Positions 51,401-57,400 of a stretch of 64,000 nucleotides of DNA are shown piece after piece. The first letter of the stretch is position 1, and each line of letters starts with the position of its first letter. The DNA lies in assembly GCF_003790525.1 (NCBI RefSeq), contig NZ_CP033635.1. The stretch is one strand, 5' to 3'. This DNA comes from Escherichia coli (GTDB taxonomy: Bacteria > Pseudomonadota > Gammaproteobacteria > Enterobacterales > Enterobacteriaceae). Made by a program: the position numbers.

Positions 51401-54400
51401 TGGCGGCGAGCGCGATTGTTGGCTACACCGTGGACTTCTTCGGCTGGGATGGCGGCTTTATGGTAATGATTGGCGGCAGCATTCTGGCGGTTATCTTATT
51501 GATTGTTGTGATGATTGGCGAAAAACGTCGCCATCAGGAATTACTGCAAAAACGCAACGGAGGCTAATGGCATGAAATTGACGCTGAAAAACCTTAGCAT
51601 GGCGATCATGATGAGTGGAATGATCATGGGAAGCAGTGCAATGGCGGCGGACAGCAACGAAAAAATAGTCATCGCCCATCGCGGTGCCAGTGGATATTTG
51701 CCGGAGCATACGCTGCCAGCAAAAGCGATGGCGTATGCGCAGGGAGCGGATTATCTGGAACAGGATTTGGTGATGACCAAAGACGACCATCTGGTTGTTC
51801 TGCATGACCATTATCTCGATCGTGTTACTGATGTTGCCGATCGTTTCCCGGATCGGGCGCGCAAAGACGGTCGTTACTACGCGATAGATTTCACGCTCGA
51901 TGAAATTAAGTCACTGAAATTTACCGAAGGTTTCGATATTGAAAACGGTAAGAAAGTACAGACTTATCCGGGGCGTTTCCCAATGGGTAAGTCCGACTTC
52001 CGGGTGCACACCTTTGAAGAAGAGATTGAATTTGTTCAGGGGTTAAATCACTCTACCGGGAAAAATATTGGTATCTACCCGGAGATTAAAGCGCCGTGGT
52101 TCCATCATCAGGAAGGGAAGGATATTGCGGCAAAAACGCTGGAAGTGCTGAAGAAATATGGTTACACCGGTAAGGACGACAAAGTTTATTTGCAATGTTT
52201 TGATGCCGATGAACTGAAGCGTATTAAGAATGAGCTGGAACCTAAAATGGGCATGGACCTCAATCTGGTACAGCTGATTGCCTATACCGACTGGAACGAA
52301 ACTCAGCAGAAACAGCCGGACGGAAGCTGGGTTAATTACAACTACGACTGGATGTTTAAGCCGGGGGCCATGAAACAGGTGGCGGAATATGCTGATGGTA
52401 TTGGTCCGGATTACCATATGTTGATTGAGGAGACATCGCAGCCAGGTAATATCAAACTCACTGGCATGGTGCAAGATGCTCAGCAGAATAAACTGGTAGT
52501 GCATCCTTACACCGTGCGGTCAGATAAGCTGCCTGAATACACTACTGATGTGAATCAGTTATATGATGCTCTGTATAACAAAGCGGGTGTAAATGGGCTG
52601 TTTACTGATTTCCCTGATAAGGCAGTAAAATTCCTTAATAAAGAGTAATGCTACTGCAGGATGGCGTTCATGCGCCATCCTGTCTCATATCAAATTTTCC
52701 ACTCTCCACTAATTGTTCTGTGCACATTTGTAGTAAAAACAGTGGACTGCCTTCTACCGGCTTTTCTTTAGCCAGCAACGAAATCTGTCGATAGAAGGTT
52801 GGTTCGAGAGGAACGGAACACAATTCATCTGCAATGGTTTTCAGCGTTAACTCTGGTAATAAGGCGATGCCTAATCCCTGTCGAATAAAACTGATCGCTG
52901 TATCCGGGTGATTAAATTCATATTTTATCTGTGGGGTAATATTCTTTTCTTTAAATAGTGCCATAATGCTTAATTCATAGCGTCCTTTACTAATAATTAA
53001 TGGTTCACCCATTAACTCTTCCACTGTAATAGTGCTGTTTTTTGCCAGAGCATGGTTGGGCGGTAACACTACGGTGAATTTATCCTGATAAATGGGCACG
53101 GAGTACATTCCGCTCACCGGAAAATGAACAAAACCGGCATCAATGGATTCATTCTGAAGGGAATCAATAATCGCTGTGCTATTTTCCTCAAAAGGAATAA
53201 TTTTTATATTCGGATGATGAATTTCAAAGTAGCGAATCACAGCCGGTAAGATACAGGCACAGACGCTGGGGAAACAACCAAGTCTCAGCGTTCTTTGAGG
53301 GTTCTGCTTTTCCTGCTCGGCTATCTCTTTTACTGCGTTCACTTCCCGATTAATGGCGCGCAGATGATGCATAATGCGGTGACCTGCAGAGGTCAGTTGT
53401 ATAGCTTTACGGCGATCGCGTAACAGTATATTCACGCCAAGTTCTTGTTCGAGGGCAGCAATTGCCTGACTTACCGCCGACTGCGTCATGAACAATCGCT
53501 TGCTGGCTTCAGTAAAGCCACCGTAATCCAGCACGGCGAGTAAAGAATTTATTTGGGTAAGAGTCATTAGAGTTTGCTAATCAATAATATTAAAACGATT
53601 AATTTCTCTAATAGCATGCCGCCATTTATACTTCTGTTCTGCAAAGTACATCACAATTTGACGTAACCGCAGTAACGGGAGTGTTGTCTGCGTGCGTCAT
53701 CCTGACAGGCGGTAGGGTATGAAAGAGAAGTTATGGACGAAGGATTTTTGGGCAATAACCATCATCAGTTTTATTATTTTCTTCGTCTTTTATGTTTTAC
53801 TAACATTGTTGCCAATTTATATCTCAGACCGCTTGCATGCCTCTCCTGATAAAGCAGGTTTGTTGGTGACTTTATTTTTAATTGCCGCCATTGTTATTCG
53901 CCCCTTTGCCGGGCAATGGGTGGGTAAATATTCGAATAAAACTATTCTGGGGCTCTCTTCTCTGGCCTTCTTGGTGGTCACTGCGCTGTATCCTTTTTGC
54001 CACTCAATTGAATCACTGCTTTTTATTCGGGTGCTTCATGGTATTACCTTCGGGGTTATCACTACGGTAAAAGGAACGATTTCCGCGCGGCTGATCCCGG
54101 CCTCCCGACGTGGGGAGGGCATCAGTTTTTTCTCTCTGGCAATGGGGCTGGCAATGGTGGTCGGGCCGTGGATTGGCCTGAATATGGCGCGCTGGGAGGC
54201 CTTTAATATGGCTTTCTGGTTATGCACCGGCGTGGCAGCGGTGGGGATTATTCTGTCGCTGATTATGACAGTGCCGCCGGTTATCAGCCATGCTGATGGT
54301 TCAACGCCGAAAATGGGCTTCGCCGCCATGTTCGATCGCGCGGCGTTGCCATTTGCGATGGTCACCTTTTTTATGACCTTTTCGTATGCCGGGGTTTCTG

Positions 54401-57400
54401 CTTTTCTGGCGCTTTATGCACGCGAACTTAACCTGATGTCGGCAGCCAGTAATTTCCTGCTTTGCTACGCTATCTTCCTGATGATCTGCCGTACCTTTAC
54501 CGGCAATGTCTGCGACAAAAAAGGACCGAAATATGTGGTTTACCCTTGCCTTGTGTTCTTTACGGTTGGACTGGTGGTTCTCGGCTACACCCAGGGAAGC
54601 ATAATGATGGTTGTTTCTGGCGCGTTGATTGGTATCGGGTATGGTTCCGTGACGCCAGTTTTTCAGACGCAGATTATCAGTTCAGTGGAACCGCATAAAA
54701 TCGGTGTCGCAAACTCCCTCTTCTTCAATGCGATGGATGCAGGCCTGGCGCTGGGAGCCTGTGTGATGGGGATGATGGTTGCACATACTGGCTACCGAAT
54801 GATTTATCTGCTGGGTGCACTATTAGTGGTAGTGGCTGGTGGAGTCTATGAGCTGCAAATGAAGGGCAAAAGCGGTGTCATGCTAGTAGCGGCAAAAGAA
54901 ATTCATTAATACGACACGTTTCATTAAGATTTTTCGCAGGTAACCACCTATAGTCATTGTCGTAAATAAAAAATGACAGGCGATAGGGTATGGCAGTTTC
55001 AGCAAAGCACGACGAATTTAATCACTGGTGGGCAACAGAGGGCGACTGGGTTGAAGAGCCTAACTATCGCCGTAATGGTATGAGCGGGGTGCAATGCGTC
55101 GAGCGCAACGGCAAAAAGCTATATGTAAAGCGCATGACGCATCATCTGTTTCATTCCGTACGTTATCCGTTCGGTCGACCAACGATTGTCCGTGAGGTTG
55201 CGGTAATTAAAGAACTGGAACGGGCTGGTGTCATCGTGCCGAAGATCGTTTTTGGTGAAGCGGTGAAAATTGAGGGGGAATGGCGCGCGTTGCTGGTGAC
55301 TGAAGATATGGCGGGGTTCATCAGCATTGCTGACTGGTATGCCCGGCATGCAGTATCGCCTTATTCTGACGAAGTACGGCAAGCCATGTTGAAAGCAGTG
55401 GCGCTGGCGTTTAAGAAAATGCATAGCGTTAATCGTCAGCATGGCTGTTGTTATGTTCGCCATATCTATGTGAAAACAGAAGGTAAGGCAGAAGCTGGAT
55501 TTCTTGACCTGGAGAAAAGTCGTCGCCGCTTGCGTCGTGATAAAGCGATTAATCATGACTTCCGCCAGCTGGAAAAATATCTGGAGCCGATCCCTAAAGC
55601 GGACTGGGAGCAGGTGAAAGCGTATTACTACGCCATGTAATCGTTGTAGGCCAGATAATACGCGTAAGCGTCGTATCTGGCGCTAGTACCCGATCACAAC
55701 TCGATTTCAATATCGCCTTTTGCCCGGCAACAACAGGGCAAAATTTCCCCCGGCTGAATAAAGGCTAACGGTTCGGCAATCCAGTCCACCTGGCCTGCAA
55801 CAAGGCGTGTGCGACAGGAACCGCAGTAACCTTCGCGGCACTGATACTCAACCGCCACATTGTGGGATTCCAGCGCCGCCAGAAGGGAAAGGTGTTCATC
55901 CTGGCACAGCAGCTGTGTGCCAGTGATGCGCAGGGTAACGCGGGCCATCAGAGCTGGAAGTTACTCAAATCGTCGGTGTCCACTTCCGCGTCAATCTGCC
56001 CGACCAGATAAGAACTCACTTCCACTTCCTGCGGAGCAACCTGTACGTTATCAGACACCAACCAAGTGTTGATCCACGGGATCGGGTTGGAGCGCGTCTG
56101 GAACGGCAGATCCAAACCGACTGCCTGCATACGGATATTGGTGATGTATTCAACGTACTGGCAGAGGATGTCTTTATTCAGACCAATCATCGAACCATCA
56201 CGGAACAGATAATCCGCCCAGTCTTTCTCTTGCTGTGCCGCCTGGACAAACAGGTCATAGCACTCCTGCTTACATTCTTCGGCAATTTCCGCCATCTCCG
56301 GATCATCCGCGCCGCTGCGCAGCAGATTCAGCATATGCTGGGTGCCGGTCAGGTGCAGGGCTTCGTCGCGGGCAATCAGGCGAATAATTTTGGCGTTACC
56401 TTCCATCAGTTCGCGTTCTGCAAAGGCAAAGGAACAAGCAAAGCTGACGTAGAAGCGGATCGCTTCCAGCGCGTTAACGCTCATCAGGCAGAGATACAGT
56501 TTTTTCTTCAGCTCGCGCAGGCTAACGGTTACGGTTTTACCGTTAACGGTGTGGGTACCTTCGCCCAGCAGATGCCAGTAGCTGGTCATTTCGATCAGTT
56601 CATCGTAATAGCTGGAGATCCCTTCCGCACGTTTCTGGATCTGCTCGTTGGTGACGATATCGTCAAAGACAACTGACGGATCGTTAACGATATTACGGAT
56701 GATATGGGTATAGGAGCGGGAATGAATCGTTTCTGAGAACGCCCAGGTTTCTACCCAGGTTTCCAGTTCCGGGATCGAGATCAGCGGCAGCAGTGCCACG
56801 TTCGGGCTGCGACCCTGAATGGAGTCCAGCAGCGTCTGATATTTCAGGTTGCTGATAAAGATGTGTTTTTCGTGTTCAGGTAGTGCCTGGTAATCGATAC
56901 GGTCACGAGAAACGTCAACTTCTTCCGGACGCCAGAAGAAAGAGAGCTGCTTTTCGATCAGCTTTTCGAAGATGTCATATTTTTGCTGATCGTAGCGAGC
57001 CACGTTAACCGGCTGACCAAAGAACATCGGTTCTTTCAGCTGATCATTTTTCGTCTGTGAAAAGGTGGTATATGCCATGAATGTGTCCTGTTGGGAGTTT
57101 AATGCCGGATAAGGCATTTTACGCCGCATCCTGTGCCTGATGCGACGCTGGCGCGTCTTATCAGGCCTACAAACCGAGCCGTATGCCGGATAAGGCGTTC
57201 ACGCCGCATCCGGCATCTCAATATCAGATCTTACATGCGCCGCTTTCGCAGCCATCGTCCTGGATTGACGGCACCAGATCGTCTTGTGCGTCTTCTGCAC
57301 CGTCACGGGTGTTCTGATAATACAGCGTTTTAACCCCGAATTTGTAGGCGGTGAGCAGGTCTTTCAGCAGTTGCTGCATCGGCACTTTTCCTGACGGGAA

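What the first reader, a model, noticed from the sequence alone, without database searches (positions are those of the whole stretch)
52668..54909. Intact, AT-rich LysR regulator / MFS transporter divergent pair inserted between glpQ and inaA
Two full-length ORFs (299-aa LysR-type regulator and 396-aa 12-TM MFS transporter) are divergently arranged with a 151-bp shared control region. That is the classic architecture of an LTTR controlling an adjacent efflux or uptake gene. Both are visibly more AT-rich than the flanking glp and nrd genes, suggesting horizontal origin. To my recollection K-12 keeps only a LysR pseudogene remnant (yfaH) here, so this is an accessory module whose substrate and inducer are unknown.
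Basis: partly seen in the sequence, partly recalled or inferred. Interest (0 to 1): 0.4.

Follow-up and report, generated by a model that had tools for sequence, protein, structure and literature searches.

The report
Known LysR–MFS pair (O-island 97)
This is an ordinary regulator-plus-membrane-pump gene pair, already catalogued as "O-island 97" of E. coli O157:H7; it is an old resident of this chromosomal spot in enteric bacteria that K-12 and most other E. coli have lost, not a recent insertion.

Summary
The two ORFs are real and intact: LysR 52668-53567 (-), 299 aa; MFS 53719-54909 (+), 396 aa; the spacer between them is 151 bp. They lie between glpQ and inaA.

The "AT-rich, horizontally inserted" reading does not hold:
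- Only the LysR gene is mildly AT-rich (43% GC, z -1.95). The MFS gene is unremarkable (48.7% GC, z -0.75).
- The same pair sits between the glp genes and yfaE-nrdBA in nine sampled genera of Enterobacteriaceae (Escherichia, Salmonella, Citrobacter, Kluyvera, Klebsiella and four others).
- Protein lengths are fixed at about 292 and 396 aa, dN/dS is 0.04-0.14, and GC tracks each host genome.

In 5,426 complete E. coli genomes the pair is intact in 1,219. It is cut by one 1,879-bp microhomology deletion (the K-12/yfaH state) in 3,132, and gone without trace in 1,058.

The pair is published as z3494/z3495 (OI-97). Z3495 was reported in 2024 to promote LEE expression through rcsF.

Best reading: a LysR-type regulator binds two conserved overlapping ATTA-N7-TAAT dyads in the spacer and controls a DHA1-like proton-coupled exporter. 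The ligand and substrate are unknown. Novelty: already known. Interest: low.

The parts
52668..53567 (-). LysR-type transcriptional regulator gene, the orthologue of EDL933 z3495. 299 aa here against 292 aa in nearly all orthologues.
   Evidence: ORF. Pfam HTH_1 at residues 3-63 and LysR_substrate at 88-267. 98% aa identity to EDL933. The paper's z3495 deletion primer matches 53565-53605 exactly. The NCBIfam yfaH model NF007272 matches residues 226-291.
52695..52698 (.). Homopolymer run one base shorter than in EDL933. The resulting -1 frameshift replaces the last residue with 8 others (…SGKI* becomes …SGKFDMRQDGA*).
   Evidence: Window sequence, C-termini of the orthologues and the EDL933 sequence. 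The 299-aa form is rare among database entries (P0271/P0272 against the 292-aa clusters).
52657..52682 (.). Hairpin CAGGATGGCG-TTCATG-CGCCATCCTG between the convergent glpQ and LysR genes. It is a likely bidirectional terminator, and variant haplotypes break at it.
   Evidence: Sequence. The EDL933 1.7-kb insert and the no-trace haplotype both diverge from the window at about 52680. The consensus terminator scan did not call it because the T tracts are weak.
53568..53718 (.). 151-bp divergent control region.
   Evidence: Alignment of 26 spacers shows conserved blocks. No consensus sigma-70 promoter was found inside it, which fits activator-dependent promoters. No Rfam family matched.
53589..53612 (.). 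Predicted LysR operator: two overlapping ATTA-N7-TAAT (T-N11-A) dyads, 53589-53603 and 53598-53612. A further conserved CTAAT half-site lies at 53577-53581, about one helical turn away.
   Evidence: The block CTAAT..ATTAAAA.GATTAATTT..CTAAT is conserved in 26 spacers, including Leminorella, where the pair is at another locus. It forms a palindrome. These are 2 of the 4 matches in the 64-kb window, against 0.9 expected.
53625..53665 (.). Further conserved spacer blocks: TTTATAC (53625-53631; candidate -10 TATACT for the MFS gene, or TATAAA on the minus strand for LysR) and ATCACA…T.ACGCA (53650-53665; role unknown).
   Evidence: Conservation line of the spacer alignment. The promoter assignment is inference only.
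53719..54909 (+). 12-TM MFS transporter gene, the orthologue of EDL933 z3494. It is DHA1-like and a probable H+-coupled exporter.
   Evidence: ORF. Pfam MFS_1. AF2 model with 12 helices, and NorA the best PDB match at TM 0.83/0.89. Family-invariant R61, R104, G108 and D266, near-invariant G149-P150 (motif C) and D340. 396 aa in every Enterobacteriaceae orthologue extracted (393 aa in Leminorella). The paper's z3494 primer matches 53679-53718 with 1 mismatch.
52924..54810 (.). Segment lost in K-12-type genomes: a 1,879-bp deletion between the direct repeats TTTATCTG at 52924-52931 and 54803-54810. It leaves the LysR 3' end (yfaH) and the last ~35 MFS codons.
   Evidence: Alignments with a K-12-like locus and with MG1655, and the RefSeq annotations 'missing N-terminus' for both remnants. 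This junction is present in 3,132 of 5,426 genomes.

Best explanation
This is the z3495/z3494 module, O-island 97 of O157:H7 EDL933. It is a self-contained sensor-plus-pump unit that was already at this position in the common ancestor of many Enterobacteriaceae. Most E. coli have since lost it by deletion.

Proposed mechanism:
1. The LysR-type regulator binds as a tetramer to the two conserved overlapping ATTA-N7-TAAT dyads, and to a flanking CTAAT half-site, next to its own start codon.
2. From there it represses its own promoter.
3. On binding an unidentified small-molecule co-inducer, it activates the weak promoter of the divergent MFS gene.
4. The MFS protein is a 12-TM DHA1-like proton antiporter that exports that compound or a related one.

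In EHEC the regulator is additionally reported to raise LEE expression through rcsF.

Shown here: the identity of the genes, their intactness, synteny, purifying selection, the deletion history and the conserved operator-like sequence.

Inferred: binding at that operator, activation of the MFS gene, the export direction, and the existence of a ligand.
For: Identity:
- Pfam domains.
- 98% aa identity to EDL933 for both proteins.
- The paper's primers map to 53565-53605 and 53679-53718.
- Paper PMC10819331.

Ancestral at this locus, not inserted:
- The order glp - LysR - MFS - yfaE - nrdBA holds in Salmonella, Citrobacter, Kluyvera, the Klebsiella oxytoca group, Pseudocitrobacter, Superficieibacter, Phytobacter, Pluralibacter and other Escherichia species.
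- MFS identity is 81-97% and LysR identity 63-96%, both falling with phylogenetic distance.
- Gene GC follows the host genome, for example Kluyvera 56% and Citrobacter 50-53%.
- No tRNA gene and no flanking island repeats.

Functional genes:
- Fixed lengths (LysR 292 aa in all but five of the 26 loci, MFS 396 aa) and dN/dS of 0.04-0.14.

Loss by deletion:
- Remnants of both genes flank a TTTATCTG microhomology junction.
- Counts are 1,219 intact, 3,132 K-12-type and 1,058 with no trace.

Regulatory coupling:
- The operator-like block is conserved across genera and travels with the pair to a different locus in Leminorella.
- The dyads are enriched over chance.
- No third conserved gene accompanies the pair.
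- A divergent LysR (35-37% identical) plus MFS (34% identical) pair also exists in Neobacillus.

Export:
- The antiporter motif C (G149-P150) and the TM4 Arg104 are conserved in the family.
- The nearest sequence and structure relatives are exporters: NorA, SotB, CntE, and the YhhS/YfcJ models.
Against: - No experiment shows that Z3495 regulates z3494.
- The only published phenotypes belong to the regulator alone. A z3494 deletion had no adherence, LEE or colonisation phenotype.
- The MFS gene meets no curated family cut-off: YhhS model 110 of 374 bits, YfcJ model 85 of 364 bits. The substrate class is therefore open.
- The structure search gives only the generic MFS fold. Anion transporters such as OxlT, MCT1 and MFSD10 score almost as well as NorA.
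- Motif A is degenerate in the N-terminal half.
- No consensus promoter is detectable in the spacer, so the promoter assignments are guesses.
- Frequent loss in E. coli shows the module is dispensable.
Confidence: 0.6

Rival explanations
1. The pair is a recently and laterally acquired island in some E. coli lineages. [quoted passage not shown]
For: - It is absent from K-12 and present in only 22% of complete E. coli genomes.
- In Escherichia the LysR gene has low GC (41-44%, z about -2).
- One E. coli lineage (O169:H41) carries a roughly 1.25-kb replacement block only 72-80% identical, so recombination does act on this locus.
- The nearest MFS relatives outside Enterobacterales are in Bacillota (55%). 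A very old transfer into the family is therefore possible.
Against: - Same position in nine sampled genera.
- The K-12 state keeps remnants of both genes around a microhomology junction.
- GC is ameliorated to each host.
- Identity declines with phylogenetic distance.
- No tRNA gene, integrase or flanking repeats.
- The MFS gene shows no compositional deviation.
Confidence: 0.07
2. The MFS protein is an importer (H+ symporter) for a nutrient or signal, and the LysR protein activates uptake.
For: - MFS direction cannot be read from sequence with certainty.
- Symporters and exchangers (DgoT, OxlT, MCT1) are among the top structural matches.
- LysR regulators commonly control uptake and catabolic genes.
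Against: - No catabolic gene accompanies the pair in any genus or at the relocated Leminorella and Bacillota loci.
- The antiporter motif C is conserved.
- The closest sequence relatives and family models are exporters.
Confidence: 0.17
3. The regulator's real job is global or virulence regulation (rcsF, then Rcs, then LEE). It is functionally uncoupled from the neighbouring MFS gene.
For: - Deleting z3495, but not z3494, lowers LEE expression, adherence and mouse colonisation.
- EMSA and ChIP-qPCR on the rcsF promoter are reported.
Against: - The pair and its operator are conserved in LEE-free genera.
- The rcsF promoter has no ATTA-N7-TAAT-like dyad above chance: 4 matches with up to 2 mismatches, against 8 expected.
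- The published ChIP table lists about 97 weak peaks (log2 enrichment 1.17-1.81), mostly on rRNA, ribosomal-protein, chaperone and porin genes.
- That table never exceeds coordinate 4.47 Mb, so it looks like K-12-sized coordinates. It has no interval over the MG1655 position of rcsF, and it cannot report a locus that K-12 lacks.
Confidence: 0.1
4. In this strain the module is decaying and effectively non-functional.
For: - Repeated loss in E. coli.
- Truncated LysR forms in Salmonella bongori and some S. enterica.
- The window's LysR carries a terminal frameshift.
Against: - Both ORFs are full length.
- The frameshift alters only the last residue, in a region that varies between genera.
- dN/dS within Escherichia is 0.05-0.14.
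- The operator is intact.
Confidence: 0.06

Closest known systems
O-island 97 of E. coli O157:H7 EDL933 (z3494 MFS / z3495 LysR; Wang et al. 2024, Microorganisms 12:140, PMC10819331)
   Same: It is the same locus. Both proteins are 98% identical, the spacer is the same 151 bp, and the paper's primers map onto the window.
   Different: - EDL933 carries an extra 1.7-kb AT-rich segment with an orphan 356-aa ORF between glpQ and the LysR gene. The window lacks it.
- The EDL933 LysR is 292 aa and the window's is 299 aa.
- The paper interprets the island as laterally acquired. The synteny and deletion scars found here say otherwise.
yfaH (b2238), K-12 pseudogene
   Same: yfaH is the 3' remnant of this LysR gene. 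The NCBIfam yfaH model matches residues 226-291, and the position between inaA and glpQ is the same.
   Different: K-12 lacks 1,879 bp: the first two-thirds or so of the LysR gene, the spacer and about 90% of the MFS gene.
Divergent LysR-regulator / MFS-transporter pairs of E. coli, such as PunR-PunC (ydhB-ydhC) and CynR-cynTSX (named from my own knowledge, not tested here)
   Same: Same architecture: a LysR regulator transcribed divergently from a transporter gene, with T-N11-A-type boxes in a short spacer.
   Different: No orthology. The CynR model scores 119 bits against a cut-off of 277. The ligand and substrate here are unknown.
YhhS/YfcJ-like MFS transporters (NCBIfam PRK05122 and PRK12382; CDD 'MFS_YfcJ_like' as quoted in PMC10819331)
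   Same: These are the best-scoring family models, aligned end to end (residues 10-376). They are 12-TM putative efflux permeases.
   Different: The scores are far below the curated cut-offs (110 of 374 and 85 of 364). The window protein belongs to a separate small clade. Outside Enterobacterales the nearest relatives are Bacillota proteins at about 55% identity, and everything else is at or below 37%.
NorA (S. aureus DHA1 quinolone/H+ antiporter)
   Same: Best solved-structure match by sequence (E 2e-13 over the N-terminal domain) and by fold (TM 0.83/0.89). They share motif C.
   Different: Identity is only about 18%, and the sequence match covers the N-terminal half only. Conservation of the NorA protonation residues was not examined. 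There is no evidence for drug efflux.

Membership tests
LysR-type transcriptional regulators (LTTR) | N-terminal winged-helix HTH_1 domain (PF00126) | tested here: met
   Residues 3-63, E 1.2e-17.
LysR-type transcriptional regulators (LTTR) | C-terminal LysR substrate-binding domain (PF03466), total length about 300 aa | tested here: met
   Residues 88-267, E 1.5e-36; 299 aa. PDB relatives include CysB, BenM and OxyR.
LysR-type transcriptional regulators (LTTR) | Divergent target gene with T-N11-A dyad(s) in the spacer | tested here: met
   Two overlapping ATTA-N7-TAAT dyads at 53589-53612, conserved in 26 spacers.
LysR-type transcriptional regulators (LTTR) | Co-inducer-dependent DNA binding and activation at that site | not testable with these tools
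   Published DNA binding is only for the rcsF promoter. No ligand is known.
Major facilitator superfamily, DHA1-like H+ antiporters | MFS_1 domain and a 12-TM, two-times-six-helix fold | tested here: met
   PF07690, E 6e-45. The AF2 model has 12 helices and pLDDT 92.9. 464 PDB matches at E <= 0.001; all 50 listed are MFS transporters.
Major facilitator superfamily, DHA1-like H+ antiporters | Antiporter motif C (G-x3-G-P-x2-G) in TM5 and motif B Arg in TM4 | tested here: met
   …GLAMVVGPWIG…, with G149-P150 at least 90% conserved; R104 and G108 invariant in 128 homologues.
Major facilitator superfamily, DHA1-like H+ antiporters | Canonical motif A (G-x3-D-R/K-x-G-R-R/K) in the TM2-TM3 loop | tested here: inconclusive
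   The N-half loop reads GQWVGKYSNK, with no Asp. A motif-A-like G262…D266-K-K-G is in the TM8-TM9 loop, and D266 is invariant.
Major facilitator superfamily, DHA1-like H+ antiporters | Proton-coupled efflux activity | not testable with these tools
   No transport data. The z3494 deletion had no reported phenotype.
YhhS / YfcJ family (NCBIfam PRK05122, PRK12382) | Score at or above the curated whole-protein cut-off | tested here: not met
   110.1 against 374 bits, and 85.3 against 364 bits.
O-island 97 (z3494/z3495) of EDL933 | Orthology and same locus as EDL933 z3494/z3495 | tested here: met
   98% aa identity for both proteins, same neighbours. Published primers map to the window.
Horizontally acquired genomic island | Absent from the syntenic site in related genera | tested here: not met
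   Present at the syntenic site in nine sampled genera of Enterobacteriaceae.
Horizontally acquired genomic island | Compositional deviation of the whole segment | tested here: not met
   LysR z is -1.95 but MFS z is -0.75. The orthologues' GC tracks the host genomes.
Horizontally acquired genomic island | Mobility signatures (tRNA target, integrase or transposase, flanking direct repeats) | tested here: not met
   No tRNA gene in 45000-64000. No flanking repeats that bracket the pair. No mobility gene among the neighbours.

The most novel reading that the evidence does not exclude
The pair may be an ancient sensor-exporter module for a still unidentified metabolite. It may derive from Bacillota, was fixed early in Enterobacteriaceae, and has been lost repeatedly in E. 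coli. In LEE-positive strains the same ligand-sensing regulator may have been co-opted to tune virulence. If so, finding the ligand of Z3495 and the substrate of Z3494 would reveal a new chemical cue for EHEC colonisation. The conserved ATTA-N7-TAAT operator defined here would be the handle to find it.
Probability: 0.25. Interest if true: 0.45.

Novelty: already known. Interest (0 to 1): 0.2.

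Why it matters
The practical value is mainly corrective. The locus is a textbook K-12-versus-O157 "island", and its regulator has been presented in the literature as a laterally acquired virulence regulator. The comparative evidence here shows an ancestral enterobacterial module that most E. coli, K-12 included, lost by deletion.

That changes how its role should be framed. It is a housekeeping-type sensor and pump, co-opted in EHEC, rather than a pathogen-specific acquisition.

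The analysis also supplies a concrete, testable operator (53589-53612) and a target gene (the MFS) that the published ChIP analysis could not have reported if its table is in K-12 coordinates, as it appears to be. The substrate and inducer remain unknown.

Tried and rejected
- NCBIfam scan of both proteins: no functional family reached its cut-off. Only the yfaH fragment model passed.
- PADLOC: only chance-level hits.
- Rfam on 52500-55100: one sub-threshold hit to a Drosophila lncRNA model, so no riboswitch or leader family.
- Consensus promoter and terminator scan: nothing in the spacer.
- Structure prediction plus PDB fold search for the MFS protein: a confident generic MFS fold with NorA on top, but no substrate information.
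- PDB sequence search for the LysR protein: generic LTTRs (CysB, BenM, OxyR), with no clue to the ligand.
- Search for a conserved third gene that might hint at a substrate: none in Enterobacteriaceae or Leminorella. In the two Bacillaceae loci read (Neobacillus soli, Bacillus sp. EB600), a short ORF that looks like a universal-stress protein (my reading of the translation, not scanned) follows the MFS gene.
- The LysR next to the 55%-identical Desulfosporosinus MFS is only 25% identical, so it is not an orthologue.
- Literature searches by locus tags (STM2280/STM2281, ECs3121-3123, yfaH, WP accessions) found only PMC10819331 as relevant. My first guess at the tags (Z3497/Z3498) turned out to be glpQ/glpT.
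- Looking for the operator dyad in the rcsF promoter: not above chance.
- The no-trace haplotype was checked for remnants of the pair or of the EDL933 insert: none were found. That state alone therefore cannot prove deletion.

Full report
**Observation**

The window is E. coli. The region 52400-55200 is 100% identical to strain 165. The two reported ORFs exist exactly as stated.

- 52668-53567 (-) encodes 299 aa with HTH_1 and LysR_substrate domains.
- 53719-54909 (+) encodes 396 aa with an MFS_1 domain.
- The AlphaFold2 model built on 128 homologues has 12 helices and a mean pLDDT of 92.9.
- The spacer is 151 bp. glpQ ends at 52648 and inaA starts at 54990.

The compositional claim is only half right.

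| Gene | GC | GC3 | z (GC), 47 window ORFs |
|---|---|---|---|
| LysR | 43.1% | 41.0% | -1.95 (second lowest) |
| MFS | 48.7% | 54.7% | -0.75 |
| glpQ | 46.1% | 51.5% | n/a |
| inaA | 49.8% | 51.2% | -0.52 |

The MFS gene is therefore indistinguishable from its neighbours.

**What it is in E. coli**

MG1655 has only the pseudogene yfaH (b2238) between inaA and glpQ. The NCBIfam yfaH model matches residues 226-291 of the window's LysR.

Aligning K-12 and a K-12-like genome to the window shows a single 1,879-bp deletion between two copies of TTTATCTG, at 52924-52931 and 54803-54810. It leaves the 3' end of the LysR gene and the last ~35 codons of the MFS gene. RefSeq annotates both remnants as "missing N-terminus".

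Counts among 5,426 complete E. coli genomes:

| State | Genomes |
|---|---|
| Intact-length pair | 1,219 |
| K-12-type deletion junction | 3,132 |
| glpQ-inaA junction with no trace of either gene (e.g. ST131) | 1,058 |

- Of the intact genomes, 711 also carry a 1.7-kb, 27-35% GC segment with an orphan 356-aa ORF between glpQ and the LysR gene, as in EDL933.
- The window's configuration, intact without that segment, is therefore found in about 508 genomes, or about 9%.

**Ancestral, not inserted**

I used context look-ups of three orthologues, a scan of one genome per species, and tblastn with the window's proteins. The order glp(A/T/Q) - LysR - MFS - yfaE - nrdB - nrdA appears in:

- Salmonella enterica (three subspecies)
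- seven Citrobacter genomes
- Kluyvera
- the Klebsiella oxytoca group
- Pseudocitrobacter, Superficieibacter, Phytobacter and Pluralibacter
- other Escherichia species

Further points:

- MFS identity falls from 89-97% in other Escherichia species, to 84-87% in Salmonella and Citrobacter, to 81-85% in more distant genera. LysR identity falls from 93-96% to 74-81% to 63-71%.
- Lengths are fixed: the MFS is 396 aa in every Enterobacteriaceae locus (393 in Leminorella), and the LysR is 292 aa in all but five of the 26 loci.
- dN/dS against the window is 0.04-0.14 for every pair where it could be estimated.
- Gene GC follows each host.
- inaA is the lineage-restricted gene at this locus, found here only in Escherichia and Pseudocitrobacter.
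- No tRNA gene, mobility gene or bracketing repeat is present.
- In Leminorella the pair lies next to fadR-dsbB instead, so it has moved as a unit.

Outside Enterobacterales the closest MFS relatives are in Bacillota, at about 55% identity in Desulfosporosinus and a Bacillus. Everything else is at or below 37%. Neobacillus has a divergent LysR (35-37%) plus MFS (34%) pair. A very old transfer between phyla is possible, but that is a different claim from an accessory insertion in E. coli.

One limit applies. The species scan relies on exact peptide words, so absence of a genus from its results is not evidence that the genus lacks the pair.

**Literature**

The pair is O-island 97 of EDL933: z3494 (MFS) and z3495 (LysR). 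Wang et al. 2024 (PMC10819331) report the following:

- Deleting z3495, but not z3494, lowers LEE gene expression, HeLa adherence and mouse colonisation.
- Z3495 does not shift LEE promoters but binds the rcsF promoter.

Their primers match the window at 53565-53605 (0 mismatches) and 53679-53718 (1 mismatch).

I read their ChIP table with caution:

- It holds about 97 intervals at log2 enrichment 1.17-1.81, mostly on rRNA, ribosomal-protein, chaperone and porin genes.
- Its coordinates never exceed 4.47 Mb.
- It has no interval over the MG1655 position of rcsF (219,591-219,995), and the name rcsF does not occur in it.
- If the coordinates are K-12-based, as they appear to be, the table cannot report a locus that K-12 lacks.

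Whether Z3495 regulates z3494 was not tested in that paper.

**How it probably works**

An alignment of 26 spacers shows a strongly conserved block next to the LysR start codon: CTAAT-N7-ATTAAAA.GATTAATTT..CTAAT.

- The block contains two overlapping ATTA-N7-TAAT (T-N11-A) dyads at 53589-53603 and 53598-53612, plus a further half-site at 53577-53581. The half-sites are spaced about one helical turn apart.
- These two dyads are 2 of only 4 such matches in the 64-kb window, against 0.9 expected.
- The block is also present in Leminorella, where the pair is at another locus.
- Downstream there are conserved TTTATAC and ATCACA…ACGCA blocks, but no consensus sigma-70 promoter. This fits activator-dependent promoters.
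- The rcsF promoter has no comparable dyad.

For the transporter:

- The family-wide invariants are R61, R104 (TM4, motif B), G108 and D266.
- G149-P150 (antiporter motif C) and D340 (TM11) are at least 90% conserved.
- The best sequence and fold matches are exporters: NorA, SotB, CntE, and the YhhS/YfcJ models. All family models score well below their cut-offs.
- No catabolic gene travels with the pair.

I therefore favour a ligand-responsive LysR regulator that represses its own gene and activates a proton-coupled exporter. The steps from "conserved operator" onward are inference.

**Rivals**

- Recent horizontal acquisition is contradicted by synteny, the deletion scars and composition.
- An importer role cannot be excluded from sequence, but it is less likely given motif C and the lack of linked catabolic genes.
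- A purely virulence-regulatory role cannot explain conservation of the pair and its operator in LEE-free genera.
- Functional decay in this strain is unlikely. The only lesion is a terminal frameshift that swaps the last residue for eight others in a region that varies between genera.

**Verdict**

This is a real but ordinary feature that is already described. The "AT-rich insertion" interpretation is not.

The useful additions are three:

- the evidence that OI-97 is ancestral and was lost by deletion;
- the population counts of its states;
- a specific predicted operator and target for Z3495.

Substrate and inducer remain unknown.

Noticed in passing
L001:1786-3494 (EDL933; inserted at window position ~52681): A 1.7-kb segment of 27-35% GC carries an orphan 356-aa ORF between glpQ and the LysR gene. 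It has no Pfam, NCBIfam or PADLOC match. It is present in 1,046 of 5,426 E. coli genomes: 711 with the intact pair and about 335 with the K-12-type deletion. This segment, not the LysR-MFS pair, looks like the genuine foreign insertion at this locus.
   Followed up: partly
L004 (E. coli O169:H41), equivalent to window 52640-53875: This is a mosaic allele. A roughly 1.25-kb block (LysR gene, spacer and first ~150 nt of the MFS gene) is only 72-80% identical to the window, while both flanks are 95-100% identical. Its LysR is 84% identical in protein, dS is saturated, and its GC is 48.6% against 43%. Its nearest sampled relatives are still Escherichia, at 86-87%. About 100 genomes fall in the matching identity band. 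The donor is unknown.
   Followed up: partly
window 53703-53721 and 54974-54992: A 19-nt direct repeat (18 of 19 identical), TGACAGGCG(G/A)TAGGGTATG, forms the ribosome-binding region and start codon of both the MFS gene and inaA. It is shared by the Escherichia-type alleles. It is absent from the O169:H41 MFS leader and from Pseudocitrobacter. The expected chance occurrence is far below 1. The meaning is unknown; a small gene conversion is one possibility.
   Followed up: partly
window 54990-55640 (inaA): Among the genera sampled, inaA lies between the MFS gene and yfaE only in Escherichia and Pseudocitrobacter. In Salmonella, Citrobacter, Klebsiella and Kluyvera the MFS gene abuts yfaE directly. 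inaA is therefore the lineage-restricted gene here.
   Followed up: partly
window 52695-52698: The window's LysR allele has a homopolymer run one base shorter than EDL933. This gives a 299-aa protein whose stop codon lies in the loop of the glpQ-side hairpin (52657-52682). The variant is rare among database entries.
   Followed up: partly
window 18601-19809 (-): This 402-aa ORF has the lowest GC in the window (34.3%, z -3.8). It contains ATTAAAACTATTAAT at 18982-18996, which matches the LysR operator dyad at 14 of 15 positions. In such AT-rich DNA that is probably chance.
   Followed up: no
window 59500-61000: A strongly AT-rich stretch (30-39% GC) lies between nrdA and the start of a 1,254-aa ORF (60205-63969).
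   Followed up: no
PMC10819331, Supplementary Table S4: The published Z3495 ChIP-seq peak list appears to be in K-12-sized coordinates (maximum 4.47 Mb). It consists of weak peaks on highly expressed genes. It contains no interval at the MG1655 rcsF position and no entry named rcsF, although rcsF is the target the paper highlights.
   Followed up: partly
proteins P0328 and P0333: Truncated forms of the LysR orthologue (177 aa in Salmonella bongori, 165 aa in some S. enterica) suggest independent decay of the regulator outside E. coli too.
   Followed up: no
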